Positions 33,967 through 48,542 of a DNA stretch of 61,565 nt are shown one piece after another. Under the pieces are notes generated by a model that made no database searches, was not told the DNA's origin, and was given only the letters and a program-made list of their open reading frames with translations. The position numbers and the translations under genes were made by a program. How positions within the stretch are numbered: the stretch's first letter is position 1; every line of letters starts with the position of its first letter. The stretch comes from an uncultured Gammaproteobacteria bacterium. Its GTDB lineage: Bacteria; Patescibacteriota; Patescibacteriia; Magasanikbacterales; UBA922. The DNA is taken from contig CAZKAD010000001.1 in NCBI GenBank assembly GCA_964550845.1, forward strand, positions 197,750-259,314, in the 5' to 3' direction.

Positions 33967-34014
33967 AATTTCAGTAAAAAGTTTTTATTCTTCAAAAAGG
34001 AAAAGAATTAACAA

Positions 34015-35982
34015 ATGTCGAGAATTGTGCTTGCCGGGTCTCGAATTGTACCATTCGCAGAGATTTTGAATACACAAATCCCAATTTTCGCTTTGTTCGG
34101 TCCGTCAGGAGCAATCGGAGTTGGTAGTCCAGGTGCAACTGGACCTGCAGGAACAACTGGTCCAACTGGACCTACCGGAGGAGTAGGCCCAACAGGGCCG
34201 ACTGGGCCCGTTGGTTCTGCTGCAACAACCGGTCCAACTGGAGCGACAGGACCAACCGGGCCAACCGGAGGAGTAGGACCAACTGGAGCGACAGGACCAA
34301 CTGGAATTCAAGGAAATACAGGTCCTACCGGGCCGGCAGGAACAAACGTTACTGGTCCAACTGGTCCAACTGGTCCAACGGGCCCCGCTGGATCGGCTTC
34401 AAACACAGGAGCGACCGGTCCAACTGGACCTGCAGGCCCAACTGGGCCAACTGGACCTCAATCGTCAATGACCGGTGCACAAGGCCCAACTGGAGTGTCG
34501 TCAACAACTGTCAAACAATATCGAACTTTAGATGACTTAAACACTGGAGATTTTGTTTCACTCTTCTTTACAGGGACTGAAGCAAAAGCTAGAAATTTTA
34601 ATTATCGAGAGAAATTTTTATCTTCAGGTGGTTCGACTTTATTTTCTGCTGGAAGTTTAATTACTCGACAAGTAATTTTACCATTAAGTGGACCAAGAGC
34701 AATTAGTTTCGGAGCTTCGAATGATACAATGGCTGCTCAACATAATGCAATTCTCGGAGATTTTGATTTGTCTCAATTTGCTCCGACTGCCTCACCATTT
34801 ACGATCGCACAGGAAAATACTGGCTTGATTGGTGCTGTTCATGATAATACCGGAAGTGTTCTTTTAATGTATCGGTCAGCTGGATTTTATATCTTCGAAG
34901 GAGTTACACTCAGTAATACCGGCTTTGTTTTGTATTGGGGTAATCTTGGTTTCCATTCAACTGCAGCTGGAATTACTGAATCAACCATTGCATCATCTTC
35001 ACGTCCAGATGCCTATTATGTATTGACCAACTCAATTGTCCAACCTTTTCTCGATCTAGTGCAATATACAGGTGGAACCGCACCAGCGGCTTCTCGGTTA
35101 TCAACTGGATTTACAGTTGGATCTGCAAGTGGAACATGCTTCCTTCGAAAAATTTATTCGGCAAGTACAGGATCGGGTGAAACAATTGATTATTTGACCT
35201 CAATTCATACAATCACCGGATTTACTGGAGCTGAAGTGAAATATTTTTCTGTCAATCCTTATTCTTCAGTTTATACTGAAATCGGAACCACTAGAGTTAA
35301 TCTACTCAACGGAATTCACCTCTGGCAAGCTGAAAATATTTTCAACAAAGATAATTATTCATATTTTCTTATTCCAGGAGGAACAAGTGGAGATATTTTA
35401 ACTGTCAATCATACAGGTGGAACTGCTTCAGTTTCGGCGAATGTGAATTTCGAAGATTTTCTTGGCTCTTACACTACTTCAACTTTAAAAACTCTTCTCC
35501 ATCGAGGTCGAAATAGTAAAAAATTTTTGATGGCTGCAGCCTCAACTGCAGGAGGATTAATCGCTCGAGAGTTTGGATTTAACATCGATTCAATTACAGG
35601 AACGTCTCCCCTCTTACATCTCACTCCATACATCGATACTCAATCATTTACCGTAAACAATCCTCAGATTTACGCTGCTCACTCCGGATATGCGTTGCTT
35701 GGTTCTTACAAAGAAACTGATACGTTAGAAGCGGGAATTAATTTGGTTTATGATTATCAAGGTTCGGCTACAACTGGATCTAATTTTTATGGAGTTGCAC
35801 GACAAGCAATTCTCCGAGAAGAAACGGGTCCAATTGCTTTGCACGGGGCGGTTGTAGGAGGTTACACAGGATTATCGCAACTATATTATTACATTTCTCC
35901 AACTGGAAGTTTAACTGAACATACGGGAACTTTTCGAGTGGGAAGAGCGGTATCACCAAATGACATTCAAATAAGGTATTAA
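34015..35982 (+). CDS. large collagen-like repeat protein
   Basis: 655 aa with ~125 aa of [14 protein letters not shown] triplets and then a beta-rich domain. Paralog of 31930..33966. Confidence 0.85.
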
Positions 35983-36036
35983 TCTTTTCAAATTTGATTG
36001 AATGGGTTTTGATTTCGTTAAAGATTAAAAGATTAA

Positions 36037-37046: not shown

Positions 37047-37979
37047 TTAAATTTCGTACAGACAATCCCGACATCTCACAAAATTTTTGATTTTATTAAT
37101 TACATTGAAAGTTGTATAATCTTCATTCTCGTCTTCACTTTTAAGAAAGCTAGTAATCAAATTGAACACACGAGGATCATACAAATCTTTTGACAAAAAG
37201 AATGGCCAATAAGTTTCACTTTCTTTTTCAGGATGTTCCACGATGAACAATCCAACCTCAATCAAGGTGGCCAATTTATCTTCATGTGAATAAGGTAGAA
37301 AAATTCGTGGAACATCGAGACAAGTTTTCTTGTCTTGTTTCATCGCTTCCCGAATGGCAAGTCCTTCTATCATTTTATCAAGTTCAAGTATTCCTCCACC
37401 ATAACATATCCAAATTTTTAACTGTTGTATTGGCATTGAAACAAGTCCATCAATAGCAGTATCAATTAAATCGAATTCATCTTGGAATCTCTTATTGTTT
37501 GGTAAAAATTTACATCCAATCATACAAACATTATTCAAATGATAACCCAAATAATCATATTCGGCAAACAAAATCGAAGTGATTTGAGTTCTTTTCCCAG
37601 AATAAACGCGAACAGGTAATCGATTGAGAAATTCGAATAATACCGAGTACGAACAATATGGAAGGAAAATTGCTACCGAATGAAAACTAACTAAATTTTT
37701 TCTTTCTTTTGCCCGACGTTCAATCGGTTTCTTAGTTTTAGCAGCATTCTCAAAGGGATCTTTTTTATGCGTATCTGCAAATGCGACCAAGTCAAGCGAG
37801 GCGTCAAGGTCAAGGTTGAGTTTAAACCAATTCCAGCTGTAACTGTATTGGAATCTTGATAATCCAATAGTAATGCCAAGAGTTGATTTTTTCAGCATCA
37901 TCTGTTCAAGACGAGTTAAAAAAGGAATTAAATCTCGGTCGTCTGCCCGACAAAGATATCCAGTTCTCTGCTCGAACAT
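37047..37979 (-). CDS. LYDPRLL-motif family protein, subtype A
   Basis: 310 aa. N-terminus MFEQRTGYLCRADDRDLIPFL is paralogous to 39056..39931. C-terminal FLSKDLYDPRVFNLITSFLK. AAAATTGA on the gene strand at 38041..38048. Confidence 0.8.
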   Translation of the reverse strand: MFEQRTGYLCRADDRDLIPFLTRLEQMMLKKSTLGITIGLSRFQYSYSWNWFKLNLDLDASLDLVAFADTHKKDPFENAAKTKKPIERRAKERKNLVSFHSVAIFLPYCSYSVLFEFLNRLPVRVYSGKRTQITSILFAEYDYLGYHLNNVCMIGCKFLPNNKRFQDEFDLIDTAIDGLVSMPIQQLKIWICYGGGILELDKMIEGLAIREAMKQDKKTCLDVPRIFLPYSHEDKLATLIEVGLFIVEHPEKESETYWPFFLSKDLYDPRVFNLITSFLKSEDENEDYTTFNVINKIKNFVRCRDCLYEI

Positions 37980-38040
37980 ATTTGTTAGAGTAAATTAATA
38001 TTGAATATTGAATATTTTTAGTGAAGAGTGAATATTAATT

Positions 38041-38048
38041 TCAATTTT
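38041..38048 (-). promoter_or_regulatory. AAAATTGA octamer
   Basis: 62 nt upstream of ATG 37979. Confidence 0.6.
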
Positions 38049-38081
38049 GATTTTTCATTCTGTCTAAAGTTTATCAGGAAG

Positions 38082-38984
38082 TTAGTACATCAAAGCATTA
38101 TTCGTCGATCCGACTATTCTTGTAATATGAATTGCATTCATCATTTCCGCTACCTTCTGGAATAAATCAAAGTATTTGGAATCATCTGCGAATTGAGCTA
38201 TCAGACAAAGCAATCTTGGATCATACACTTCTCGGGTTAGAAAAAAGTTGAACACTCCTTTTGATTGAGATAAACCATTTACAACCAAGTTATCAAAAAT
38301 TGGCATCCAAATAAAAGCTCGACGGGGAGAAAAATTATCTCGGAATATTCTTGGGCATTCAACTCGATATTCGGCTTCTAAATCGTGAAAGATGCGTAAG
38401 ATAGCCGGAAAGAAATCATCCATTAGCATCGTGTACAACGAAATATTTGTTTTTGGAAGGACTTGAACAAAAGCACGATAATTGTCAGCAAATTTTTGAA
38501 CGAGAAACTCTCTCCGGGATGAATTTTGATCAAAGAAATAGTTAGCATACGATCTTGTATCCGAATAATTAGCAAGTCGAGCTTTTTGTTCGAGCTCTTC
38601 ATGATCAATACGATTATAGAATAATGCTTCAAATTTAAATGGAACTTGAGGAAGAAATGGAATAAAATCATTCTCAAAATTAATCTCGATGTTATATTGA
38701 TTTAATATCTCGCAAATTTCATCTGGAAAGAAATCAGATATTTTTTCTTTCCCATAGGTATTGAGAATAATTGATATTTGTTTTTGATTTACCAAATCAA
38801 CAGAATCTGGTGAAGTTTTACTTAATTTTGTGATTGAGACATAAATACATTTCCGTTGATTTTTTTGAAATGGATCATTTAAGATCCGAAATATTGGAGG
38901 TTTTCGTCTGCCCTTAACAGCATCTTTCCATTTATGATATAAATCATTCATTGTCGATTTAATCTCCTTCGACCTGATCATCAT
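38082..38984 (-). CDS. LYDPRLL-motif family protein, subtype B
   Basis: 300 aa. IPFLPQVPFKFEALFYNRIDHEEL is paralogous to 40042..40872. C-terminal FLTREVYDPRLLCLIAQFADDS. Confidence 0.8.
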   Translation of the reverse strand: MMIRSKEIKSTMNDLYHKWKDAVKGRRKPPIFRILNDPFQKNQRKCIYVSITKLSKTSPDSVDLVNQKQISIILNTYGKEKISDFFPDEICEILNQYNIEINFENDFIPFLPQVPFKFEALFYNRIDHEELEQKARLANYSDTRSYANYFFDQNSSRREFLVQKFADNYRAFVQVLPKTNISLYTMLMDDFFPAILRIFHDLEAEYRVECPRIFRDNFSPRRAFIWMPIFDNLVVNGLSQSKGVFNFFLTREVYDPRLLCLIAQFADDSKYFDLFQKVAEMMNAIHITRIVGSTNNALMY

Positions 38985-39055
38985 TGTTTGTGAGATTATC
39001 TGTTTTTGTAAGACGTTTAAATTGAATCAAGATTCAATTTATTGTGCGGAAATAT

Positions 39056-39931
39056 TTATCTTGTAAATTGATTGATTAGTATCAATAATCGAGGATCGTA
39101 CAAATCTTGAAGAAAAAAGGATTGTAATAATGATTCGGTATCAGAGAGACCAAGAATGATCAATCGATGAAACTTATTTTCGAGTAGACAATTGTCTTTG
39201 TATGGAAAAACTCTCTGAACATCTAAACAAGTCTTTTTCTTCTCTTGAATAACATCTTGAATAACATCTCGAATAGCAGTATCTTCGACCAACAAAAATG
39301 TTTCCTCTGACTCTGTGTATGAATTACCATCGTGAATCCATAATTGGAGATGTCGAACTGGAATTGAAAGTATCCCTTTGAGAAGAACCCGAACGAATTG
39401 TTTAAGAGGTCTTTCGGGATATTTAACCAGTCCTTCGGGACGTTTAACAAGACCTTGAGGATATATTTTAAATCGAAATATAGTAGTATTGTTTATGTGA
39501 TGTCCTGTATAAGGATATTCGGCGATGAGAATTGATGAAATTTTACTTTTGTTTCCTGAATAAACACGAGTTGGAAACTGATTAATAAAGTCAATAACCA
39601 TTGTGTGTTTTTCTTTTGGAATCATCAGATCGACACAATGAAACATAATTAAATTTGAATGATATTCACCTTGGTATCCAATATTCTTTGATTCCGAATG
39701 ACCATAGTAAACAAACTTTCTTTGTTCTCGTTCAAATTGTTCCAAATCTAACGATTCGTTAAGATCGAGATTTAATAAACACCATTCCCAGTGATAAGAG
39801 TATTCTTCATTATCATCAAGATAAATACCAAGCGTGGCTTTGTCCACCATCATATCTTTAAGATAATTTAAGAAAGAAAATAAATCTCTGTCATCAGACC
39901 GAGAACATAATCCCGATCTATCCGAAAACAT
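39056..39931 (-). CDS. LYDPRLL-motif family protein, subtype A, with a 3-unit in-frame repeat insert
   Basis: 291 aa with N-terminus MFSDRSGLCSRSDDRDLFSFL and C-terminal end FFLQDLYDPRLLILINQFTR. YPQGLVKRPEGLVKYPERPLKQ is encoded by 39400..39472. Confidence 0.8.
   Translation of the reverse strand: MFSDRSGLCSRSDDRDLFSFLNYLKDMMVDKATLGIYLDDNEEYSYHWEWCLLNLDLNESLDLEQFEREQRKFVYYGHSESKNIGYQGEYHSNLIMFHCVDLMIPKEKHTMVIDFINQFPTRVYSGNKSKISSILIAEYPYTGHHINNTTIFRFKIYPQGLVKRPEGLVKYPERPLKQFVRVLLKGILSIPVRHLQLWIHDGNSYTESEETFLLVEDTAIRDVIQDVIQEKKKTCLDVQRVFPYKDNCLLENKFHRLIILGLSDTESLLQSFFLQDLYDPRLLILINQFTR
39400..39472 (-). repeat. GTTAAAC-hairpin element, 3 tandem units inside a CDS
   Basis: The plus strand reads tttaagaggtctttcgggata tttaaccagtccttcgggacg tttaacaagaccttgaggatat. 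On the gene strand it is read as YPQGLVKRPEGLVKYPERPLKQ. Confidence 0.85.
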
Positions 39932-39945
39932 TTTCGGTGTGATTT

Positions 39946-40046
39946 TGGACGTTTAACCACTTCAGAGAGTCCTGGGACGTTTAAAATCAATTTATTTAAT
40001 CAGTCTCGAAGAAAAGTTTAATCAGTCCTTTGGACGTTTAATCAAA
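39946..40046 (-). repeat. GTTAAAC-hairpin element, array of 3-4 divergent units
   Basis: ttggacgtttaaccacttcagagagtcctgggacgtttaaaatc...tttaatcagtctcgaagaaaagtttaatcagtcctttggacgtttaatc. Confidence 0.8.
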
Positions 40047-40872
40047 TTTCATTGGTGTCAATTTCTAATATCGATCGAGCAAGTCGAGACTCCCAAGATT
40101 GCCCCGTTTCATCTCTAAACTCATTGATCAGACAAAGCAATCTTGGATCATATAAATCTTGAGTAAGAAATTGGAACAACGGACCCGATGAGTAAATCGA
40201 TATACTATTCACTACAAGATTGTCCAGCTTAACTAAAGATTCATTTGATTCAAATTCCTCAGATACTTGAAATGTCCTTTTAACTTCACAATTTTCTTCA
40301 ACCTGATGAAAAGCTTTTAAAATTTCAACCGGAAAACTTCGAACAATCACAATATAAGAAGAAATTTTTGATCTTGACAGCGCCTTAAGAAAAATGTGGT
40401 AATTATGTGAGAGTTCTTCGACGAGAAACTTTCGTCTTTCTTGATCTTCATCAAAAAAGTAATTTGTAAAAGAAGAGATAAAGAAATGATCATATAATGT
40501 CTGACATTTTTGTCTTAATTTTTTATCATCAATTTGATTGTAAAAAACTGCTTTGAATGCAAAAGGTATCTGAGGAATAAGATGAACTGAATTCATAATG
40601 AAAGAAATTGAGACATCACAACGCGATATTTTCTCGATTATCTTTTTTGGAAACAATTTATCAAAAGTTTCATTTGTTTGAGGTTCGAGAGAAATGGTGA
40701 TGGAATCTGGGCAAATAACTACATTATTGTACCGCATTGCACTTCTCCCGTGGGTATGAATGAATACTTTTTTCTTTCCTTCGAGAGAGAAAGATTTTTT
40801 CCAATCATCAAAGTGCTGAATTGTTACTGACGAGTGCATCTTTATTAATTGATCAGATAAAAAGAAGATCAT
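40042..40872 (-). CDS. LYDPRLL-motif family protein, subtype B
   Basis: 276 aa with LIPQIPFAFKAVFYNQIDDKKL and C-terminal FLTQDLYDPRLLCLINEFRDET. Confidence 0.8.
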   Translation of the reverse strand: MIFFLSDQLIKMHSSVTIQHFDDWKKSFSLEGKKKVFIHTHGRSAMRYNNVVICPDSITISLEPQTNETFDKLFPKKIIEKISRCDVSISFIMNSVHLIPQIPFAFKAVFYNQIDDKKLRQKCQTLYDHFFISSFTNYFFDEDQERRKFLVEELSHNYHIFLKALSRSKISSYIVIVRSFPVEILKAFHQVEENCEVKRTFQVSEEFESNESLVKLDNLVVNSISIYSSGPLFQFLTQDLYDPRLLCLINEFRDETGQSWESRLARSILEIDTNEI

Positions 40873-41193
40873 TTTATTTTTGTTTCTTAGTTACAAATGT
40901 ATTGATGTATTCGTTACAAATCTTTGTTCAAGATCACGAACGAAGGTAAAAATAAGAACAAAAATTGTTCTTTCATTAAGCTCATCATCTCATCAAAGTG
41001 TTGATAAACGCCTTAGACTAATGGTTAAACAACGTCGAGAAATGTTGATTTTTTGGAAATTTTGATTCAACTTCAACTAATTGGATTGAATTCAATCAAT
41101 TCAACTAATTCAATCAATTCAATTTCAAAACTTTTTCATTTCCGATTTCGAATTTATAGACTTTTGAATTCGACTTCTTCGAATTCAATTCAT

Positions 41194-42087
41194 TCAATTT
41201 AATCCATTCCATTTGCTCTTCAATTGTTCGGCATTTTCATCGAAAGTTAATCGCCGTTCGAATGAAAGTAATCGACTCTCAAAAGAAAGTATTCGTTGCT
41301 CAAATTTTTGTATCGCCGTGGAGGATTTCCCGTGACTCGAAAAATATTCACCGACAAGCAAATGAATAAAAGCTTGAAGAAAAGGCTCAACTTTTTGATA
41401 TTCTTTTTGGTCACGAGCCCACTTTTCGAACAAAAGATTCATTTTACCTTCTAAGGTAAAGTTATTGTACAATAAATTCATATAACTATTTAAATGTTGG
41501 CGAAAAAAGTCGAAAGATAACTTATCTTTCAACACTTGTTCTGGAATAATCAAGTTGATTTCTGAAGTAACGAGAAAACTTGCAGGAAAGAACTGTTGCA
41601 GTCGATCAACTTCTCGATCGACAAATTTTCGAAGCTCTTGTTCAGAAGTCTTATTTCTTTCACCAATTGCAGTAATCAAAGCTTCACTTTGTTTTATACG
41701 AATATTAATTGTATATGAAATTCGTTCCAGATTTTGATTACTGAAATCATGGCCTTGAAATCCGGGATAAAATCCGAGCAATGTGATTAAATCACTTCGA
41801 TGTTGATGAAAGAAATCCAGATGATCTTGATGGACAAAAAAGTATCTTGGAAATGTCTGCTCCTCGTCTTCTCGAATGACTTTAATGTGATATTTTGCCG
41901 CAAGCTCACGAAGTATAACAAAATCTTCGCCAAGAAATCGAGATATGCTTTTACCTTTACCAAAGAAATTGGCAGATTCAAATAGATAAATTCGAGCTTT
42001 TTGTGCAACCAAATAAATTTGAATCAGAGGATCGGCCAAGAGCGGAAACTCTTTCAACAAAGAGACAAGTTGTCTGATTCGAAACAT
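41194..42087 (-). CDS. hypothetical protein
   Basis: 297-aa ORF with a C-terminal RILSFESRLLSFERRL repeat. Hairpin 41165..41187 lies downstream. Confidence 0.7.
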   Translation of the reverse strand: MFRIRQLVSLLKEFPLLADPLIQIYLVAQKARIYLFESANFFGKGKSISRFLGEDFVILRELAAKYHIKVIREDEEQTFPRYFFVHQDHLDFFHQHRSDLITLLGFYPGFQGHDFSNQNLERISYTINIRIKQSEALITAIGERNKTSEQELRKFVDREVDRLQQFFPASFLVTSEINLIIPEQVLKDKLSFDFFRQHLNSYMNLLYNNFTLEGKMNLLFEKWARDQKEYQKVEPFLQAFIHLLVGEYFSSHGKSSTAIQKFEQRILSFESRLLSFERRLTFDENAEQLKSKWNGLN

Positions 42088-42153
42088 CTCTTTGACTCGA
42101 ATTCGAGATGTTTTGCTTTGAAAACTTTTCTTTTTTCGATTTTAAGAAAGGAA

Positions 42154-43710
42154 ATGTGGGAATGGATTATCCCGACAATTGTCGTGATTATTCTCCTTCT
42201 TTTGATTGTCCGAAAGATGAGTCCCCCAAAGATACAGACAACAGCGTTTGATCTTCCGCCTCAAGCAAGTAATTGGCAACAAGTCTTAAATGTTGATGCT
42301 CAACGTCATGCCGTTCAACAATGGTGTACTGCACAAGGGTATGATTATCGTGTTCCAACCTCAACTGGAGATTTCGGAGGATGTTTATACAATAAGAGTT
42401 CATGTTTGGCCGATTCAAATCCCCATTGGGTACATTGTACTGCAATCACTGGAACCTCAGGCGGAATTGATCATAATGGAAAACCATGTTCTCTCAATGC
42501 CAAACCTTATCTTGAATGGGATGACAATCGAGGAGTATGTGTGCAAAGTTTCTATCCACCAGCTTTAATTTCTGGAGTTTGTGAAGCTCGAGGACTTGGC
42601 CCTTGGTATCCAGGAAAATTGGATTGTGATGCAAGTGGATATTGTCAAATCAATCCAAATGATGCTCCCACTTGCCAACTTACTTCCGATTATTGCGATC
42701 GAATGGGACTTGATTATTCATCTTCAAATCAAGGAGATTGTACATTAAGTGATGCTCAAAATGTGATTGAAGGACTAATTGGAAAAACAGTCACTCGTAC
42801 AGTCAAACGAAATACCGAAGCTATGATTCGAGAATGTGGAGATAATGTGTTCAGTGGACGTTGCGCTGCCAGTATTGGCACTGAACTGACAACTTTTGAT
42901 CAAATTGCACTCAATACAGCTGAATCGGAATTCAAAGGTTATATGGAAGAGATGAAAAGTAAATGTTCTGGAGATCTTTATTCTGGAGTTGATAAATTTG
43001 CTGGCTGTGCCGAAAGTCTTTTCCCTGGTTTTTACATTGGACAACAAGCCGAGCACTTTGTCGACGGAATGTTAAATGGAGCTCTTGGCTGGATCCCAGG
43101 AATGCCTTCAGATTTAATCGCAAAAGCAAATGGATATATTGCTAAATATGGAATTATCGCATTTAATGCAATTGTGACTGTGGGGCAAGATGCGATTAAA
43201 GCTTTTGATATTGCTGGAGATATTATGTATTCAGCACTCAAGAAAATTGGTCCAGTTGGAACGATTATTTCAGGAGCGATTTCAAATGTGATTGCCTTCG
43301 GTGAGAAAATGGCCAGTATTATTGCCAATACAGCCGAAGAAGCTCTTCATATTTTTAGTAATACAATTGTTCCAGCTGCTTATCATGTGTTTGAAGCAAT
43401 TACAGACGCGGTGCTTCATCCAAAAGAATTTTTCACTAACATTGCCAATGATGTTGATCAATTCTTTAAAGATCCGGTCGGATCAATTAAAAGTGCAATC
43501 ACTGAAATTGCAAAGGTTGGAGGAGAAGTTCTTGATGCCGCCAAAATGGTGATTCATAAGCTAACCGAAGTCGCATCGAGAGTTGAAGCGGCTCTTGCCT
43601 CAGCCTTAATCGACATTGCCAATAAAATTGCCGAAGCATTTAGTACAGTTGGTCGAGATATTTCAAGTGCTTATCACGCTGTTAAGCATTTCTTCGAATC
43701 GATATTTTAA
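42154..43710 (+). CDS. membrane-anchored Cys-rich protein with an Ala/Ile-rich helical C-terminal half
   Basis: Trimmed to ATG 42154 (MWEWIIPTIVVIILLLLIV), which removes the overlap with 41194..42087. A ~200-aa segment with many Cys is followed by a long amphipathic A/I/G-rich region. Confidence 0.75.
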   Translation: MWEWIIPTIVVIILLLLIVRKMSPPKIQTTAFDLPPQASNWQQVLNVDAQRHAVQQWCTAQGYDYRVPTSTGDFGGCLYNKSSCLADSNPHWVHCTAITGTSGGIDHNGKPCSLNAKPYLEWDDNRGVCVQSFYPPALISGVCEARGLGPWYPGKLDCDASGYCQINPNDAPTCQLTSDYCDRMGLDYSSSNQGDCTLSDAQNVIEGLIGKTVTRTVKRNTEAMIRECGDNVFSGRCAASIGTELTTFDQIALNTAESEFKGYMEEMKSKCSGDLYSGVDKFAGCAESLFPGFYIGQQAEHFVDGMLNGALGWIPGMPSDLIAKANGYIAKYGIIAFNAIVTVGQDAIKAFDIAGDIMYSALKKIGPVGTIISGAISNVIAFGEKMASIIANTAEEALHIFSNTIVPAAYHVFEAITDAVLHPKEFFTNIANDVDQFFKDPVGSIKSAITEIAKVGGEVLDAAKMVIHKLTEVASRVEAALASALIDIANKIAEAFSTVGRDISSAYHAVKHFFESIF

Positions 43711-43766
43711 TTACTTCAGAGAGTCCCGAGGGATGTTTAACCAGTCTCAAAAGACGTTTAACCACG
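43707..43766 (-). repeat. GTTAAAC-hairpin element, 2 units
   Basis: ttaattacttcagagagtcccgagggatgtttaaccagtctcaaaagacgtttaaccacg, containing stop 43708..43710. Confidence 0.8.
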
Positions 43767-43771
43767 ATATT

Positions 43772-43800
43772 AAATTCATCTGTCTTGATCAGATGAATTT
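43772..43800. terminator. hairpin between convergent genes
   Basis: Arms aaattcatctg / cagatgaattt, 7-nt loop. Confidence 0.55.
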
Positions 43801-44327
43801 TCAATTTCCTTCAAGCATTTACTCACATAACTGGGAAAATTTTCGTTTTCTTCGGAAACTTTTTTATAGGTATCGATTTCTTTTTGGAAACGTCCGATAA
43901 GTTCTTGTATATCGAATTCTGGGTGAAGGAGAATTGAAGTAGATGAGTTGACATTTTGTTGCTCGGGGCTCAATTTTGCAAGGGTATCTTCCCGACGTTC
44001 AAAAATAAAGCTCAATTTTGCAAGTGCATCTTCTCGACGAAACCATGTTCTATACCTTCCTCCTACATAATGATGAGGACGAAGGCATTGCGCTTCAATT
44101 AAAGTGATGATATTTTGTTGAAGAAATTCTGCTAGTGGTTGAAGTATTTCTTTTTCTTTTTCAGTTAATTGATAAGATGCAAATGCATCTTTAAAAAAGT
44201 CTGGGTAAAGTGGTTGCGTCCAATTAAAAACTTCTTTAACTTCCCAACTACAAAAAGGACCAGACGAATTAACACGCACAAGGGTTTTCTCCATCTTTTC
44301 AAAAAGGAGAAATTTTTTAATATTCAA
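43776..44327 (-). CDS. hypothetical protein
   Basis: 183-aa ORF with an internal REDALAKLS / REDTLAKLS duplication. Its 3' end lies in hairpin 43772..43800. Confidence 0.65.
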   Translation of the reverse strand: MNIKKFLLFEKMEKTLVRVNSSGPFCSWEVKEVFNWTQPLYPDFFKDAFASYQLTEKEKEILQPLAEFLQQNIITLIEAQCLRPHHYVGGRYRTWFRREDALAKLSFIFERREDTLAKLSPEQQNVNSSTSILLHPEFDIQELIGRFQKEIDTYKKVSEENENFPSYVSKCLKEIENSSDQDR

Positions 44328-44328
44328 T

Positions 44329-44352
44329 ATTCAATCTTCGAGAAGATTGAAT
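44329..44352. terminator. hairpin downstream of 44401..45402
   Basis: Arms attcaatctt / aagattgaat, loop cgag. Confidence 0.55.
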
Positions 44353-44392
44353 AAACGTTCTTTCTGAATTGGTTATACGTCCTTCGGGGATA
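44352..44392 (+). repeat. GTTAAAC-hairpin element (degenerate unit plus good unit)
   Basis: taaacgttctttctgaattggttatacgtccttcgggga. It shares ttctgaattggtta with 18887... Confidence 0.7.
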
Positions 44393-44400
44393 TTAGAATG

Positions 44401-45402
44401 TTAAAACAAACCAATCAAATTGATCGAGCGAGGATCATACAATTCTTCTGTTAAGAAAGAATGAAAAATACTTGCATTTTTAGCATTTAACCAATCCGAT
44501 AGGACGTTTAACCCGTTAGCAATTAATTGGCAAAAATTCAAATCATTCCAGCACACCGACTTCGATCGCTGTTGGCAAAATCGATGTAGATAATCGATGC
44601 CTGGGTAATCTTCGAAATACCAACACGCAATTAATCTCGCTCCGTGTTTGTTATTTAACTCTTCTGTTTTGTCTGCTGCGAGATAGGAAATGTTTTCAAT
44701 CGGAAGTTTACCTGGATATTGAAGACAATTAAGCAGCATCTTTCGATTATTAATTTCAAGAGTTTTGATGCTTTTTACCTGATTAAAGTAACTCATATCG
44801 CCGTGAAAAAATGGAAACATATAGAAAAGATCACAGACAAGTCCGTTAAGAAATCGATATTGCTCAGTATCAACAAATGGCAACAAGTATCCGAAATGGA
44901 GTCCTTGGTAAGGAAAATTTTCTTTTGCTTGTAGAGAGTAAAATCTTTGAAGAAAAGACCAATCTTGTCTCGGTTCGTCATATGTAAAAAATGGAAGTTC
45001 AATATGGATCACGTTCAACTCGCTAATATCAATATCAGGTAAAGCAGTAACAAGCGCGAAGTTTTCTTTATCGGCTGGTTCCCGGGGTCGAGGTTGAAGC
45101 GAAATGATAAAAAATTCGGTATTTTGTTCACTCTCAAGATTATTTTCGTTTATTGGTTTTTCTCCGTCAATCTTTTGCAGACCGAGTAAATTCTCAAAAC
45201 TTCCAAGCGAAGTAAATATTTTAGCAATCCCATCCGGAAATCTACCTTGTTCAAATTGATCCAGCATATCTTCAAGTTCCTTTTTTGACGAAAGTTCAAT
45301 CGTTTGCGGGAGTTCGTAACGAAACATTTCAGTTGAACTTCTTTCGGAGGGGTGTTTGATTTGATAAACAATTCTTTGAATCAATTTTCTTAGCCAGGTC
45401 AT
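44401..45402 (-). CDS. LYDPRLL-motif family protein with an in-frame repeat insert
   Basis: 333 aa ending FLTEELYDPRSINLIGLF. GLNVLSDWLNAK is encoded by element copy 44486..44515. Confidence 0.8.
   Translation of the reverse strand: MTWLRKLIQRIVYQIKHPSERSSTEMFRYELPQTIELSSKKELEDMLDQFEQGRFPDGIAKIFTSLGSFENLLGLQKIDGEKPINENNLESEQNTEFFIISLQPRPREPADKENFALVTALPDIDISELNVIHIELPFFTYDEPRQDWSFLQRFYSLQAKENFPYQGLHFGYLLPFVDTEQYRFLNGLVCDLFYMFPFFHGDMSYFNQVKSIKTLEINNRKMLLNCLQYPGKLPIENISYLAADKTEELNNKHGARLIACWYFEDYPGIDYLHRFCQQRSKSVCWNDLNFCQLIANGLNVLSDWLNAKNASIFHSFLTEELYDPRSINLIGLF
44486..44515 (-). repeat. GTTAAAC-hairpin element inside a CDS
   Basis: The gene strand reads gggttaaacgtcctatcggattggttaaatgc, translated as GLNVLSDWLNA. 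Confidence 0.85.
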
Positions 45403-45428
45403 CAGAACGCTTAAGGTGATTGCTCACC

Positions 45429-45442
45429 GCCTCCGAAGAGGC
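45429..45442. terminator. short GC-rich hairpin downstream of 45462..46334
   Basis: Arms gcctc / gaggc. The loop reads UUCG on the gene (minus) strand. Confidence 0.5.
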
Positions 45443-45461
45443 TTTTTTATTTGAGAATGTT

Positions 45462-46334
45462 TTATTCTTCTGCGAATTTCCAGATCAAGATTAGCACTCG
45501 AGGGTCGTATAGGCCCATCTCAGGTGTATCGCAACAAAGAAACTTGGTCCAATGATTCGAATCCTTCTTTCCGGATAACCCAGCTAAGATTAAGGTATCA
45601 AAATCTTTCTGTGAGTATAGCCAATTCGTGAATCTATCTGGATTTTGGAGATGACGCTGATAATGTTGAATCAGCAAGCCCCCGTTTGGATACTTATCGA
45701 TCTTCTCAAATGTCGGAATTAAATCCGCTGTGAAAAAACCTGAAATTTCGATTGATTCAACCGGCAACTTTCGTGGATATTGAATCAAATCGATTAAGTC
45801 TTCAGGTTGAGAGATAGTCAAAACTTCAACACGATTCATCTTTTCGATCTTCTTCAGTGTAACTCCGTATTGCTCGAACTGCATCTCAAGAAATTTACAT
45901 CCGAGCCCGTCGAGAAGTTTTCCATAGCAAACAGAGTCAACCAGATGACCTATCTCGACGCTATAAATCCCATCGAATTTTGGAGTTCGTTGGGAATTCA
46001 TTCTTGAGAATTGGCGAAAAATACTATATAGATCTTCCGACAATTCGGGACTCTCGTAGTTGAAGATGAACTTGATCACTGTATTCTCAGGAGTGAAAAT
46101 TTTTTCCACCGTGATTGTATCTTCTTCATCATCTTCCAAGAAATGAGAAATAATGCTGACACATACTACAAATGGATTTTGTTTGTCAAGAATGTTCATT
46201 AGGCTTTTTTGTTCCTCATCCGGGTAAGAATCTTGGAACAATTCTTGGGTAGAGATCTTTCCATCGGTCAAATCTCTCAGCATCTGATTGCATTCATTAA
46301 GAGTAATTTCTCTTGATGAACTGAACTGATTCAT
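45462..46334 (-). CDS. LYDPRLL-motif family protein
   Basis: 290 aa ending EMGLYDPRVLILIWKFAEE. AAAATTGA on the gene strand at 46410..46417. Confidence 0.8.
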   Translation of the reverse strand: MNQFSSSREITLNECNQMLRDLTDGKISTQELFQDSYPDEEQKSLMNILDKQNPFVVCVSIISHFLEDDEEDTITVEKIFTPENTVIKFIFNYESPELSEDLYSIFRQFSRMNSQRTPKFDGIYSVEIGHLVDSVCYGKLLDGLGCKFLEMQFEQYGVTLKKIEKMNRVEVLTISQPEDLIDLIQYPRKLPVESIEISGFFTADLIPTFEKIDKYPNGGLLIQHYQRHLQNPDRFTNWLYSQKDFDTLILAGLSGKKDSNHWTKFLCCDTPEMGLYDPRVLILIWKFAEE

Positions 46335-46417: not shown

Positions 46418-46516
46418 GATTATCTATCATGTGAGCTTCGAAAAATGAGATTTTTTTCGGGGTTTAGTGAAACTTTTTGAACGTTCAAACTTTGAAATAG
46501 AATCAACATTGTTAAA

Positions 46517-48244
46517 ATGTTTGAAGAACCTTTGATTCAAGATGTGAAAAATCATCTTGCTATAATTGGAGATAAAAGAACCTCATTTCAAACAAGATTC
46601 TTCGATTTACCTCGAAGATGGGCAGAAAAGAACAACGACCGAGCTCCTTTGGAGGTTGGATTTCGAGCGAGTGATTTGTTCGATCGTTTTCTTCGAGCTT
46701 ATCAAGGAGATTTACTTCAACTTGATCTTGATGCAATTTGTTGGGCAACCTTTTTAATTGCCAGTAAGATGACAAGAGCATGTTTAATTCATCTCTCGGA
46801 TATTCTTGCTCATGCTCACGTTAAAAATCCGAAAGGACCGACAAGCGACCCAAAGTTTAATAATCGGGTACTTGATGCTGAGTTACTTGTAATTCACACT
46901 CTCGGTGGTCAGCTTGACTATCTTTGTTCGTACCATTATCTTTGTTTCCTACTTGATCGTGAAGAAAAAGTAACCCAAGTTAATGCGATCTTTCAAATGA
47001 TGGAATTTACTTGCAACAGTATTAAATTGAACCAATCCTATTCATCATTTGAAATAACTATTGGATGCTGGTCTCTTTTTGCAGATCAAAAATCCCCTCA
47101 ACTTCAAACAATGCCCGAAAGAATTCGAGAAATTCGAGAGTATCTATTTGATCGAATTGAAGCTTACAACAAGGCTGGAAAACATCAGATTCGAATTACT
47201 CCATTTGCAATCAACCTTGAAATTCCGAAGTTTCCACGAAGAATTTTGAATGAGCCTCTTTTATTGAAGATGAAAGATCTTCAATATTTAAAAGTGCTCG
47301 GATCTGGCGTAACCGGAGATGTCGATTTGTATCGCTCTTTGACGAAACCAAAGAACTACGCGGTCAAAAAGTACTTTTGCAATCCGACAGTTGACTATTA
47401 TAAGAACTATGGTGTTCCGGTAGAATTCCTTCGTGAGATTTCAGTCTTACTTCGAAATTCATCGAAGCATCTAATTCAAGTGCATGGATTCGAAGTCAAT
47501 CTTCAATCAAAGATGATTTACGTTATCCTTGAACATGGAGGTCATTCGATTTACGACTTTGTCTACGATTATGACTCGGCGTTTCATAAAAACAAAGCTG
47601 AAATGTGTAGGCAAATTATTCGACAAATTCTCGAAGGATTGGAAGATCTTCATCAACGAGGAATCTTTCATCGTGACATTAAACCTACCAACGTGGTATG
47701 TCGAATGATTCGTTCCAATCGGAAGATTTTTCCTCATGTCAAATTGATTGATTTTGGTTTGGCAAAACGAAACACATCTGAACTCAAAACACCTCGGATG
47801 GTAACGCTCTGGTATCGTCCTCCTGAAGTTTGTCAAGGAGAGGAATATAATGAAAAAACCGACATTTGGAGTCTTGCTTGTATGATCTTTGAAATGATCA
47901 ACGTAACTCCATTTTGTCCAACTTCGATAGGTAAACAAGAGAACGAAACTCATATCATTAATATGAAGAAAATGTTTTCTTCGTATGAAGGACCTGCCAA
48001 ACAAGAAGAAATTAGCCGTCTTCTTTCTCTCAAATATCGAGATAAGAATTTGGTTGATTTACTTTCGAAAATGCTGGCTTGGAAACCAGCCGATCGAATC
48101 TCTGCCAAGGAAGCTCTTCTTCATCCCTATTTTCGTGAGGATCGGCAAGAAACCGAAGACGTCAGAATGACTGACGTTAATAGTCCCACAAAGATCGAAA
48201 TTCAAGTCGATTCAATGAAGACGATTCGAAAAGACTTAGAGTAA
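46517..48244 (+). CDS. CDK-like Ser/Thr kinase with a cyclin-box-like N-terminal region
   Basis: The C-terminal half has LGSGVTGDV, GVPVEFLREISVLL (PSTAIRE position), HRDIKPTNVV, DFGLAK, TLWYRPPEV and DIWSLACMIFEM. The N-terminal ~230 aa has DLFDRFL, LDAICWATFLIASKM and VLDAELLVIHTLGGQLDY, which fit a cyclin box. Confidence 0.85.
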   Translation: MFEEPLIQDVKNHLAIIGDKRTSFQTRFFDLPRRWAEKNNDRAPLEVGFRASDLFDRFLRAYQGDLLQLDLDAICWATFLIASKMTRACLIHLSDILAHAHVKNPKGPTSDPKFNNRVLDAELLVIHTLGGQLDYLCSYHYLCFLLDREEKVTQVNAIFQMMEFTCNSIKLNQSYSSFEITIGCWSLFADQKSPQLQTMPERIREIREYLFDRIEAYNKAGKHQIRITPFAINLEIPKFPRRILNEPLLLKMKDLQYLKVLGSGVTGDVDLYRSLTKPKNYAVKKYFCNPTVDYYKNYGVPVEFLREISVLLRNSSKHLIQVHGFEVNLQSKMIYVILEHGGHSIYDFVYDYDSAFHKNKAEMCRQIIRQILEGLEDLHQRGIFHRDIKPTNVVCRMIRSNRKIFPHVKLIDFGLAKRNTSELKTPRMVTLWYRPPEVCQGEEYNEKTDIWSLACMIFEMINVTPFCPTSIGKQENETHIINMKKMFSSYEGPAKQEEISRLLSLKYRDKNLVDLLSKMLAWKPADRISAKEALLHPYFREDRQETEDVRMTDVNSPTKIEIQVDSMKTIRKDLE

Positions 48245-48255: not shown

Positions 48256-48315
48256 AAAAAATATTTAACTTCTTTTGTCTTTTTGTGTCTTTGCTTATCT
48301 TCTTGTGTGTCAATA

Positions 48316-48513
48316 ATGTCATCAGAAACAGACACTCAAATGTTTCTTGTTCAAATTGACCAAGAACATCAACGTTTCCTTGACCGACAAATGGAACTGT
48401 TTTGTGAACAACAACAGAAATTGTTTGAACAACAATTTCAATCTTCAAACGATTCGTTCAATCGGATGAATCAATTGAATTCTGCTTTCCAATCTCTTCA
48501 GATTGGAAAGTGA
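48316..48513 (+). CDS. small Gln-rich hypothetical protein
   Basis: Trimmed to ATG 48316. AAAATTGA at 48248..48255; hairpin 48519..48542. Confidence 0.45.
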   Translation: MSSETDTQMFLVQIDQEHQRFLDRQMELFCEQQQKLFEQQFQSSNDSFNRMNQLNSAFQSLQIGK

Positions 48514-48518
48514 AACTT

Positions 48519-48542
48519 TTCTTTTCCCCTCGGGGAAAAGAA
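48519..48542. terminator. hairpin between convergent genes (small ORF and topoisomerase II)
   Basis: Arms ttcttttccc / gggaaaagaa, centre ctcg. Confidence 0.65.

What the first reader, a model, noticed from the sequence alone, without database searches (positions are those of the whole stretch)
46517..48244. Apparent covalent fusion of a cyclin-box-like domain to a CDK-like kinase
The C-terminal ~330 aa are a kinase with CDK hallmarks. These are GVPVEFLREISVLL at the PSTAIRE-helix position (compare GVPSTAIREISLL), HRDIKPTNVV, DFGLAK, TLWYRPPEV (compare TLWYRAPE) and DIWSLACMIFEM. The N-terminal ~230 aa contain DLFDRFL, LDAICWATFLIASKM and NNRVLDAELLVIHTLGGQLDYLCSYHYLCFLL. These fit the cyclin-box pattern (..DRFL.., ..A.(L/M)FIASK(Y/M).E, ...E..IL..L.F.L..P(T/S)). 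A single polypeptide combining activator and kinase would be a constitutively paired CDK module able to act on the host cell cycle or transcription machinery independently of host cyclins.
Basis: partly seen in the sequence, partly recalled or inferred. Interest (0 to 1): 0.65.

Follow-up and report, generated by a model that had tools for sequence, protein, structure and literature searches.

The report
Giant-virus cyclin fused to CDK-like kinase
This giant-virus gene really does encode a cyclin and a CDK-like kinase joined in one protein, probably a self-activating kinase, but a cultured giant virus already carries a protein annotated with this design, so this is a very divergent new member and not a new invention.

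Summary
ORF 46517-48244 (+) encodes 575 aa, and every quoted motif is present.

- **Kinase half (residues 253-541):** an intact CMGC/CDK-like kinase. Pfam Pkinase scores E=3e-49, and the nearest solved structures by sequence and by fold are CDKs.
- **N-terminal half (residues 13-219):** a double cyclin fold. It scores below Pfam's threshold on its own (17.4 vs 23 bits). However, two orthologues pass, profile-profile comparison to bona fide cyclins gives 96.5% (E=7e-10), and all of the top 50 PDB fold matches to its AlphaFold2 model are cyclins. K84 and E122, the cyclin Lys/Glu pair, are the only near-invariant residues.
- **Fusion is real:** it is conserved as one ORF in four orthologues (42-95% identity), with dN/dS of 0.15-0.18 in every segment.
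- **Domain arrangement:** the full-length model has pTM 0.82, which suggests a fixed two-domain arrangement.
- **Regulatory sites:** the kinase lacks Thr14/Tyr15 but keeps the T-loop Thr.

The architecture is not unprecedented. The best viral fold match is moumouvirus L7RCF3, annotated "Cyclin-domain fused to serine-threonine kinase". Nine of 79 giant-virus kinase loci examined carry such fusions, in both domain orders. Cis activation and the targets are inferred, not shown.

The parts
46517..48244 (+). Complete CDS, 575 aa plus stop: cyclin-like domain, linker, CDK-like kinase and tail
   Evidence: ORF. Conserved full length in orthologues P0001-P0004 at 95/83/43/42% alignment identity. dN/dS over the whole gene against the L001 orthologue is 0.16.
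46553..46900 (+). First cyclin box (residues ~13-128; helices 18-39, 43-61, 71-86, 93-103, 114-128). Contains K84 (46766-46768) and E122 (46880-46882).
   Evidence: Pfam Cyclin_N matches residues 47-132 at E=0.004, 17.4 bits, below the cutoff of 23. Orthologues P0003 and P0004 score 25.0 and 23.5 bits, above the cutoff. The PDB profile search hits only cyclins A2 and D3. hhalign gives 96.5%. K84 and E122 are the only near-invariant residues across 18 cyclin domains. Helices come from AlphaFold2.
46929..47173 (+). Second cyclin fold (residues ~138-219; helices 138-147, 155-166, 169-174, 177-188, 201-219)
   Evidence: AlphaFold2 secondary structure, pLDDT 83-92. Foldseek alignments to cyclins C, A, B1, D3 and T1 span 215-259 columns, covering both folds, with TM 0.55-0.64.
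47174..47272 (+). Conserved ~33-residue linker (residues 220-252) with invariant P237, P240, R241, R242, E246, L248 and K251-L255
   Evidence: Invariant columns in the 5-orthologue alignment. pLDDT 67-73. dN/dS 0.16.
47273..48139 (+). CDK-like CMGC protein kinase domain (residues 253-541). Landmarks: G-loop GSGVTG 262-267, K284, PVEFLRE 301-307, HRDIKPTN 385-392, DFG 412-414, T-loop T425-P426 (47789-47794), TLWYRPPE 430-437.
   Evidence: Pfam Pkinase E=3.2e-49. The best PDB sequence hits are PfPK6, PfPK5, a Giardia CDK, CDK1 and CDK11. The Foldseek top 50 are all CDK-family chains, with target-normalised TM 0.72-0.86.
48140..48241 (+). Acidic C-terminal tail predicted to be disordered (residues 542-575)
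   Evidence: pLDDT below 50 for residues 543-571. The tail is absent from P0003 and P0004.
46437..46475 (+). Conserved upstream block TTCGAAAAATGAGATTTTTTTCGGGGTTTAGTGAAACTT, 42-80 nt before the ATG. It is a candidate promoter or leader element and contains an inverted repeat (CGAAAAA/TTTTTCG) and an 11-codon uORF.
   Evidence: It is the only strongly conserved stretch of the intergenic region between the window and orthologous locus L001. Sequence. Function not tested.

Best explanation
The gene belongs to an uncultured nucleocytoplasmic large DNA virus (giant virus) found in freshwater and wastewater. It encodes one polypeptide made of a complete but very divergent cyclin (two five-helix cyclin folds, residues ~13-219), a conserved ~33-residue linker, and a catalytically intact CDK-like kinase (residues 253-541).

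The most likely mechanism is intramolecular. The tethered cyclin domain packs against the kinase N-lobe and its PVEFLRE (PSTAIRE-equivalent) helix. That would hold the helix in the active position, so the kinase would not need a host cyclin and would not follow host cyclin synthesis and destruction.

The glycine loop lacks the Thr14/Tyr15 pair, so Wee1/Myt1-type inhibitory phosphorylation cannot apply. The T-loop threonine (T425, followed by Pro) is kept, and so is the basic triad that binds the T-loop phosphate in CDK2 (R306, R386, K417). Full activity therefore probably still depends on T-loop phosphorylation, either by the protein itself or by a host proline-directed kinase or CAK.

The result would be a virus-supplied, permanently partnered proline-directed kinase that acts on host cell-cycle or transcription proteins, or on viral proteins, during infection.

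Shown here: domain identities, the reality and conservation of the fusion, intact catalytic and regulatory residues, and relatives in other giant viruses. Inferred: docking in cis, constitutive activity and the substrates.
For: Kinase identity: Pkinase E=3.2e-49. All 60 listed PDB sequence hits are CMGC kinases, with CDK-type kinases at the top (PfPK6 104 bits, PfPK5 96, CDK1 91, against MAPK/JNK 86-87). The Foldseek top 50 are all CDK-family chains. K33, E51, D127, N132 and D145 equivalents are intact, and the CMGC Arg in TLWYRPPE is present.

Cyclin identity: 4 of 5 orthologues hit Cyclin_N, best E=2.8e-6, and P0003 and P0004 are above Pfam's cutoff. A profile search of 1.84 billion proteins finds, besides the orthologues and two long proteins (P0121, P0122) that match only a ~35-residue stretch, just two proteins (P0123, P0124); both are cyclins. 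The profile hits only cyclins A2 and D3 in the PDB. hhalign gives 96.5%, E=7e-10. The N-domain AF2 model has pLDDT 83.9, and all of its Foldseek top 50 are cyclins across both folds. K84 and E122 are near-invariant and align to the Lys and Glu of cyclin A2's LLASKFEE and RMEHLVL motifs.

Real fusion: one ORF in five independent sequences down to 42% identity, with a conserved linker. Synteny with topoisomerase II is retained. dN/dS is 0.18, 0.16 and 0.15 for the cyclin, linker and kinase segments.

Fixed two-domain arrangement: full-length AF2 pTM 0.82 and pLDDT 81.7. The whole chain superposes sequentially on moumouvirus L7RCF3 at TM 0.63/0.67 over 575 columns, against a query-normalised TM of ~0.40 for kinase-only hits.

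Viral context: P9 minor capsid protein, DUF5767, topoisomerase II, collagen repeats and T5orf172.
Against: No coordinates or PAE could be inspected, so the cyclin/PVEFLRE contact itself was never seen.

The apparent preference for cyclin-bound CDK structures may only reflect AlphaFold's bias towards active kinase conformations and the way the PDB library is de-duplicated.

The window protein alone is below Pfam's Cyclin_N cutoff.

The MRAIL substrate-docking patch of helix 1 is not recognisable: it reads RFFDL(P), whereas the other fusion proteins have MRAI-type motifs.

The GDSEIDQL region and CMGC insert of CDKs are diverged or shortened.

The kinase is very divergent, at 30.6% identity and 76 bits to human CDK2, no closer than CDPK outgroups are to CDK2. 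A rough NJ tree does not resolve its position.

The best sequence hit, PfPK6, has been reported to be active without a cyclin (from my own knowledge), so the kinase may not need the cyclin domain.

Expression evidence is limited to a few short metatranscriptome contigs.
Confidence: 0.62

Rival explanations
1. Activation in trans, or host capture. The cyclin domain of one molecule binds the kinase domain of another, giving head-to-tail dimers or chains. Alternatively, it binds a host CDK while the viral kinase domain binds a host cyclin. The protein would then be a hub that rewires host CDK/cyclin pairs and not a self-contained module.
For: The Lys/Glu pair (K84/E122) that, from my own knowledge of the cyclin A-CDK2 structure, contacts the CDK is conserved, and it would serve trans binding as well as cis binding. 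Giant viruses also encode stand-alone cyclins (PMC8383183, PMC6450098). Nothing here measured oligomeric state.
Against: The monomer model is compact, with pTM 0.82. The same whole-chain arrangement appears in an independent model of a very distant homologue. The ~33-residue conserved linker is long enough for cis docking. Engineered cyclin-CDK fusions in the same N-to-C order are active, as seen in papers using such fusions (listed) and in the fission-yeast Cdc13-Cdc2 fusion, which I know of independently.
Confidence: 0.18
2. The cyclin fold is not an activator. The kinase is cyclin-independent, like PfPK6, and the N-terminal cyclin-fold domain serves only as a substrate-recruiting or localisation module, or as a transcription-factor-like or Rb-like cyclin-fold scaffold.
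For: The best PDB sequence hit is PfPK6, reported as cyclin-independent (from my own knowledge). The cyclin domain is extremely divergent, and the family is tiny: two 50%-identity clusters in 1.84 billion proteins. The MRAIL patch is not conserved.
Against: Fold matches are to true cyclins, including CDK-bound chains; no TFIIB or Rb chain appears in the top 50. The two residues most conserved across all fused cyclin domains align to the cyclin A2 Lys/Glu pair, which from my own knowledge contacts the CDK. The PSTAIRE-equivalent helix keeps L305, R306 and E307. The fusion recurs in both domain orders in many giant viruses, which is easier to explain by a functional cyclin-kinase partnership.
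Confidence: 0.15
3. Artefact: two adjacent genes (a cyclin and a kinase) merged by an assembly or sequencing error, or a chance motif resemblance in the N-terminal half.
For: The window protein alone is below Pfam's Cyclin_N threshold.
Against: The same uninterrupted ORF occurs in independent assemblies from ENA, NCBI and Logan at 95%, 81%, 42% and 41% identity, with a conserved linker. Purifying selection acts on all segments. Multiple independent homology and fold tests identify a cyclin.
Confidence: 0.02

Closest known systems
Acanthamoeba polyphaga moumouvirus protein L7RCF3, annotated 'Cyclin-domain fused to serine-threonine kinase' (Megavirinae, Mimiviridae)
   Same: Same domain order (cyclin then kinase) and similar size (536 vs 575 aa). 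It is the best hit in the viral structure library, E=2.5e-22, aligned over 575 columns with TM 0.63/0.67. That implies a similar relative placement of the two domains in two independent models.
   Different: Only 18% identity. The window's virus is not a close relative of any named virus: its topoisomerase II is at most 38% identical to the only named hit, a 'viral metagenome' entry. As far as I could find, L7RCF3 has an annotation but no published functional study.
Metagenomic giant-virus cyclin+kinase fusions with Pfam-recognisable Cyclin_N, for example P0035, P0066, P0067, P0070, P0245 (cyclin then kinase) and P0017, P0028, P0034, P0040 (kinase then cyclin)
   Same: Same two domains in one ORF on giant-virus contigs. 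P0035 lies beside an intein-split RNA polymerase Rpb1 and P0034 near an AEP/D5 primase. The K84/E122 equivalents and TLWYRPPE are shared. Nine of 79 IMG/VR giant-virus kinase loci carry such fusions.
   Different: Their cyclin domains score 63-112 bits on Cyclin_N and keep an MRAI-like helix-1 motif, against 17 bits here. In a rough kinase tree the window family forms its own clade with 100% support on a long branch, outside the main fusion clade, with deep nodes unresolved. Whether it shares their fusion event is therefore unknown.
Cellular cyclin-CDK heterodimers (CDK2-cyclin A/E, CDK8-cyclin C, CDK9-cyclin T)
   Same: Each half finds these as its best structural matches. The cyclin Lys/Glu pair, the PSTAIRE-equivalent helix, the catalytic residues, the T-loop Thr and its basic triad are all conserved.
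   Different: One polypeptide instead of two. There is no Thr14/Tyr15 (V265/T266 here, V/N in orthologues). Only 12 residues precede the first helix, so there is no room for the N-terminal degradation motifs of A/B-type cyclins. The GDSEIDQL region is diverged and the CMGC insert shortened.
Engineered cyclin-CDK fusion proteins (fission-yeast Cdc13-Cdc2 'minimal cell-cycle engine', Cln3-Cdk1, cyclin D-CDK fusions)
   Same: Cyclin N-terminal to the CDK in a single chain. These show that such a design yields an active, permanently partnered kinase. Papers using such fusions are listed; the fission-yeast example is from my own knowledge.
   Different: Those are laboratory constructs made from cellular proteins. 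This is a natural, highly diverged viral gene under purifying selection.
Stand-alone viral cyclins (herpesvirus v-cyclins; medusavirus cyclin B-like; clandestinovirus cyclin A2-like)
   Same: Viral capture of the cyclin/CDK axis to control host cell state (PMC10583209, PMC8383183, PMC6450098). K-cyclin is among the fold matches.
   Different: Those viruses supply only the cyclin and use a host CDK. Here the virus supplies both, covalently linked.

Membership tests
Cyclin (cyclin-box fold; Pfam Cyclin_N PF00134 / Cyclin_C) | Two tandem five-helix cyclin folds | tested here: met
   AF2 N-domain model has pLDDT 83.9 and pTM 0.83, with about ten helices between residues 18 and 219. All of the Foldseek top 50 PDB hits are cyclins, with 215-259 aligned columns and TM 0.55-0.64.
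Cyclin (cyclin-box fold; Pfam Cyclin_N PF00134 / Cyclin_C) | Significant sequence or profile homology to cyclins | tested here: met
   The window protein alone scores 17.4 bits, below the cutoff of 23. Orthologues P0003 and P0004 score 25.0 and 23.5 bits, above it. hhalign gives 96.5%, E=7e-10. An external cyclin HMM scores 36.6 bits. The only PDB hits are cyclins A2 and D3.
Cyclin (cyclin-box fold; Pfam Cyclin_N PF00134 / Cyclin_C) | Conserved Lys/Glu pair of the cyclin box (cyclin A Lys266/Glu295; numbering and CDK-contact role from my own knowledge) | tested here: met
   K84 and E122 are invariant in the orthologues and are the only near-invariant residues across 18 fused cyclin domains. 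They align to the K of LLASKFEE and the E of RMEHLVL in cyclin A2.
Cyclin (cyclin-box fold; Pfam Cyclin_N PF00134 / Cyclin_C) | MRAIL hydrophobic patch on helix 1 (RxL substrate docking; typical of A/B/D/E cyclins but not universal) | tested here: inconclusive
   By alignment, the window has RFFDLPRRW where the other fusions have MRAITVDW or MRIILIDW. W35 is conserved but the patch is not.
Cyclin (cyclin-box fold; Pfam Cyclin_N PF00134 / Cyclin_C) | Binds and activates a CDK | not testable with these tools
   There are only indirect indications: pTM 0.82 for the fused chain and whole-chain superposition on L7RCF3.
Cyclin-dependent kinase (CMGC group) | Complete catalytic core (VAIK Lys, alphaC Glu, HRD Asp, Asn, DFG Asp) | tested here: met
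   K284, E307, D387, N392 and D412 align to CDK2 K33, E51, D127, N132 and D145. All are invariant or nearly so in the orthologues.
Cyclin-dependent kinase (CMGC group) | PSTAIRE-type cyclin-binding helix | tested here: met
   GVPVEFLREISVL aligns to GVPSTAIREISLL. P, R and E are identical, I49 becomes L305, and the flanking GVP and REIS..L are conserved. This is a variant helix, as in many non-canonical CDKs.
Cyclin-dependent kinase (CMGC group) | CMGC signature in the P+1 loop (TLWYRxPE with the CMGC arginine) and a T-loop Thr with a basic phosphate-binding triad | tested here: met
   TLWYRPPE 430-437 is invariant. T425 aligns to T160. R306, R386 and K417 align to R50, R126 and R150.
Cyclin-dependent kinase (CMGC group) | Nearest relatives are CDKs | tested here: met
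   The top 14 PDB sequence hits are CDK-type, and all 60 listed are CMGC. The Foldseek top 50 are all CDK-family chains.
Cyclin-dependent kinase (CMGC group) | Phylogenetic placement inside the CDK clade | tested here: inconclusive
   In an NJ tree of 49 kinase domains, the window family is a long-branch clade with 100% support, and deep nodes have under 30% support. The score against human CDK2 is only 76 bits.
Cyclin-dependent kinase (CMGC group) | Inhibitory Thr14/Tyr15 sites and the GDSEIDQL / CMGC-insert region of cell-cycle CDKs | tested here: not met
   V265/T266 replace T14/Y15, and orthologues have V/N. The GDSEIDQL region is not alignable and the insert is shorter. These features define canonical cell-cycle CDKs (CDK1/2), not CDK-like kinases in general.
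Cyclin-dependent kinase (CMGC group) | Activity depends on cyclin binding | not testable with these tools
   Needs biochemistry.
Giant-virus cyclin-kinase fusion proteins (moumouvirus L7RCF3 type) | Cyclin domain and Ser/Thr kinase domain in one ORF of a nucleocytoplasmic large DNA virus | tested here: met
   Domains. Viral context. The L7RCF3 match covers both domains.
Giant-virus cyclin-kinase fusion proteins (moumouvirus L7RCF3 type) | Common descent from the same fusion event (orthology) | tested here: inconclusive
   18% identity to L7RCF3. The kinase tree does not join the window family to the main fusion clade and does not resolve deep nodes. Both domain orders exist, so fusion happened more than once.

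The most novel reading that the evidence does not exclude
The window family may be an independent, third origin of a cyclin-kinase fusion in giant viruses, alongside the main cyclin-then-kinase clade and the kinase-then-cyclin forms. In that reading, giant viruses have repeatedly converged on a single-chain, obligately cis-activated CDK that escapes every layer of host control: cyclin supply and destruction, Wee1/Myt1 phosphorylation, and possibly CKIs and Cks. It would be a natural counterpart of the synthetic minimal cell-cycle engine, used to lock the host into a replication-permissive state.
Probability: 0.2. Interest if true: 0.65.

Novelty: new member of a known kind. Interest (0 to 1): 0.42.

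Why it matters
Cyclin-CDK pairs are normally two proteins because their regulated association and cyclin destruction are what make the cell cycle oscillate. A natural single-chain version removes that control.

Giant viruses carry such genes repeatedly, in both domain orders and sometimes in tandem arrays. Yet I found no functional study, only a database annotation.

This divergent member has no Thr14/Tyr15, a Thr-Pro T-loop and a cyclin box that standard profiles barely recognise. That shows how far the module can drift while both halves and the linker stay under purifying selection. It also shows that Pfam-based surveys undercount these proteins.

It is a tractable target for expression, truncation and kinase assays. 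Those assays would test whether cis-tethered cyclins yield constitutive CDKs in nature, and would show what giant viruses phosphorylate in their protist hosts.

Tried and rejected
- **Phage/GenBank collection:** tblastn gave only weak hits to the kinase part and no useful relatives.
- **IMG/VR, exact peptide patterns from the window protein:** nothing found. The profile-based scan found kinases matched only in the kinase part, so I scanned those loci myself for cyclin domains.
- **Lineage assignment through the neighbouring topoisomerase II:** failed. The only hit with a source name is a 'viral metagenome' entry at 38% identity.
- **Profile search of 1.84 billion proteins with the N-domain:** showed a tiny family, so it could not deepen the alignment. 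Two long proteins (P0121, P0122) matched only a ~35-residue stretch several times and were not pursued.
- **P0005 (Spodoptera exigua):** it scored high against the fusion profile but is a tandem double kinase, not a cyclin fusion.
- **RNA evidence:** only 150-240 nt contigs in four RNA-labelled metagenome runs, none spanning the domain junction, and DNA carry-over is possible.
- **Mimivirus early-promoter motif AAAATTGA:** not significantly enriched, with 32 matches observed, 23.3 expected, and 5 of 100 shuffles reaching 32 or more.
- **Literature:** searches for natural or viral cyclin-CDK fusions returned only engineered fusions or stand-alone viral cyclins, and several 'cyclin' hits were really 'cycling'.
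- **Enrichment of cyclin-bound CDK chains:** I considered treating this as evidence for an active, docked conformation, then downgraded it. AF2 is biased towards active kinase states, and the PDB library keeps one chain per identical sequence.
- **First bootstrap tree attempt:** timed out and was redone with a faster distance method.
Full report
**Observation.** The window has a single ATG-initiated ORF at 46517..48244 on the + strand, 575 aa. The window is AT-rich, 32-43% GC. It carries hallmark genes of nucleocytoplasmic large DNA viruses: a P9-type minor capsid protein, DUF5767, a 1144-aa type II topoisomerase immediately downstream on the opposite strand, a collagen-repeat protein, a T5orf172 protein, an SMC-like ATPase and a patatin. 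Near-identical DNA occurs in freshwater metagenomes, and related DNA occurs in wastewater, sediment and runoff metagenomes. The topoisomerase has no named relative above 38% identity, so the virus belongs to an uncultured lineage.

**Kinase half.** Residues 257-539 match Pfam Pkinase at E=3.2e-49. Against all PDB sequences, the 60 best hits are all CMGC kinases. CDK-type kinases come first (P. falciparum PK6 at 104 bits, PfPK5, a Giardia CDK, CDK1, CDK11B), and MAPK/JNK follow at 86-87 bits. The alignment to it shows:
- The catalytic residues K284, E307, D387, N392 and D412 are intact.
- PVEFLRE occupies the PSTAIRE position.
- The invariant TLWYRPPE contains the CMGC arginine.
- T425 occupies the Thr160 position and is followed by Pro.
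- R306, R386 and K417 occupy the positions of the phospho-Thr160-binding triad.
- The inhibitory Thr14/Tyr15 pair is replaced by V265/T266, and by V/N in the orthologues.
- The GDSEIDQL region and the CMGC insert are diverged or shortened.

The kinase is very divergent, at 30.6% identity to CDK2. A rough NJ tree leaves its deep placement unresolved.

**N-terminal half.** On its own the window protein gives only a sub-threshold Cyclin_N hit (E=0.004, 17.4 bits against a cutoff of 23). The following tests make the assignment firm:
- Four full-length orthologues exist (P0001-P0004, 95-42% identity). Four of the five family members hit Cyclin_N and no other plausible family. P0003 and P0004 exceed Pfam's curated cutoff.
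- A profile of the five N-domains hits only cyclin A2 and cyclin D3 in the whole PDB.
- Searching that profile against 1.84 billion proteins recovers the two orthologue clusters and two long proteins (P0121, P0122) matched only over a ~35-residue stretch. The only other hits, P0123 and P0124, are bona fide cyclins (Cyclin_N E=2e-13 and 6e-21).
- Profile-profile comparison with cyclin domains from unrelated proteins gives 96.5% probability, E=7e-10, over residues 47-184. An HMM of those domains hits this ORF, and no other ORF in the window, at 36.6 bits.
- AlphaFold2 models residues 13-219 as about ten helices (pLDDT 83.9, pTM 0.83). All 50 best Foldseek matches in the PDB are cyclins (C, A, B1, D3, T1, K-cyclin), aligned over 215-259 columns, which covers both cyclin folds.
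- K84 and E122 are the only near-invariant residues across 18 fused cyclin domains. They align to the Lys and Glu of cyclin A2's LLASKFEE and RMEHLVL motifs. From my own knowledge of the cyclin A-CDK2 structure, these are the CDK-contacting pair.

**Is the fusion real?** Yes. The uninterrupted ORF is present in independent assemblies from ENA, NCBI and Logan, with conserved synteny to topoisomerase II. The ~33-residue linker has its own invariant residues. Nei-Gojobori dN/dS against the 81%-identical orthologue is 0.18 for the cyclin part, 0.16 for the linker and 0.15 for the kinase.

**How it probably works.**
- The full-length AlphaFold2 model has mean pLDDT 81.7 and pTM 0.82. A two-domain chain with about 40 disordered residues should not reach that pTM unless the relative placement of the domains is confident.
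- The best match in the viral structure library aligns sequentially over both domains with TM 0.63/0.67, while kinase-only matches give a query-normalised TM of ~0.40. Two independent models of very distant proteins therefore share a domain arrangement.
- I could not inspect coordinates, so the cyclin/PVEFLRE contact is inferred.
- Taken with the conserved Lys/Glu pair and PSTAIRE-like helix, the most likely mechanism is intramolecular cyclin activation. The kinase would be permanently partnered, independent of host cyclin levels, and immune to Wee1/Myt1-type inhibition because the target residues are missing.
- Retention of T425 and its basic triad suggests T-loop phosphorylation still matters. 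The Thr-Pro context would allow autophosphorylation or phosphorylation by a host proline-directed kinase.
- Only 12 residues precede the first helix, which leaves no room for the N-terminal degradation motifs of mitotic cyclins.
- Substrates are unknown. The cyclin half resembles transcriptional (C, T) and cell-cycle (A, B, D) cyclins about equally.

**Rival explanations.** The alternatives are trans activation or capture of host partners, a cyclin fold that only recruits substrates to a cyclin-independent kinase, and assembly artefact. They are discussed in their own section. The first two remain possible; the third is effectively excluded.

**Comparison with what is known.** The architecture is not new.
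- The top viral fold match is UniProt L7RCF3 of Acanthamoeba polyphaga moumouvirus, already named 'Cyclin-domain fused to serine-threonine kinase'.
- Many metagenomic proteins combine Cyclin_N and Pkinase in both orders, and they sit on giant-virus contigs.
- Among 79 IMG/VR giant-virus loci with CDK-like kinase ORFs, 9 loci (12 ORFs) carry fusions, 5 as cyclin-then-kinase and 7 as kinase-then-cyclin. These include a tandem array of four on one contig and three in a single 1.47-Mb genome.
- I found no paper describing or testing these proteins. Reviews and genome papers discuss only stand-alone viral cyclins. Older comparative-genomics papers outside the searchable library may mention them.
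- The window family differs from the others in three ways. Its cyclin box is far more diverged, so that precomputed Pfam annotation misses it in P0001, P0002 and P0004. It has lost the MRAI-type helix-1 motif. It forms its own long-branch kinase clade.

**Verdict.** The mechanism is plausible but inferred. This is a divergent new member of a kind already known from annotation, though not from study. Interest is moderate.

Noticed in passing
window 37047-46334, minus strand (ORFs 37047-37979, 38082-38984, 39056-39931, 40042-40872, 44401-45402, 45462-46334; 41194-42087 is doubtful): Directly upstream of the kinase gene lies a cluster of six or seven paralogous ORFs of 276-333 aa. They share a C-terminal motif, FL..DLYDPR.L.LI..F, and have no Pfam match. 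Two of them are syntenic in the orthologous contig L001. This looks like a lineage-specific gene-family expansion of unknown function.
   Followed up: partly
window 48522-48539: A perfect palindrome, TTTTCCCC-TC-GGGGAAAA, sits between the convergent ends of a small ORF and the topoisomerase II gene. It resembles the hairpin signals that mark transcript 3' ends in mimivirus-like viruses.
   Followed up: no
window 48283-48513 (+); L001 8761-8970, L002 3494-3703, L003 2026-2235: A small glutamine-rich ORF (76 aa from TTG; 69 aa called in relatives) lies between the kinase and topoisomerase genes. It is conserved in position in all three orthologous contigs, so it is probably a real gene.
   Followed up: no
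window 46437-46475: A conserved block upstream of the kinase gene contains an inverted repeat (CGAAAAA..TTTTTCG) and an 11-codon uORF. It is the only well-conserved part of the divergent intergenic region when compared with L001. It may be a promoter or leader element.
   Followed up: partly
window 11842-12696 (+): A second, stand-alone protein kinase ORF (284 aa) matches the CDK-like kinase HMM at 83.8 bits and has no cyclin domain.
   Followed up: no
L021 (IMGVR_UViG_GVMAG-S-3300000558-93), ORFs starting at 838, 2308, 3518 and 5044: Four tandem cyclin-then-kinase fusion paralogues sit side by side on one giant-virus contig. A 1.47-Mb viral genome (IMGVR_UViG_2974536336_000001; L012, L030, L047) carries three kinase-then-cyclin fusions.
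   Followed up: partly
window 32001-36000: A local GC rise to 0.41-0.43, against about 0.35 elsewhere, coincides with a 701-aa ORF that has no Pfam hit and with a 655-aa collagen-triple-helix-repeat protein (34015-35982).
   Followed up: no
run X7: One DNA run labelled with a named organism (coded 'organism A', 2025), not a metagenome, holds 46% of the gene's sampled words. It may point to a host or a culture carrying a related virus.
   Followed up: no
P0005 (Spodoptera exigua HW555_009225, 770 aa, on a 638-kb contig): The best hit from a named organism to the window kinase is an insect 'hypothetical protein' made of two tandem kinase domains. Its origin (cellular, viral insertion or contamination) was not examined.
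   Followed up: partly
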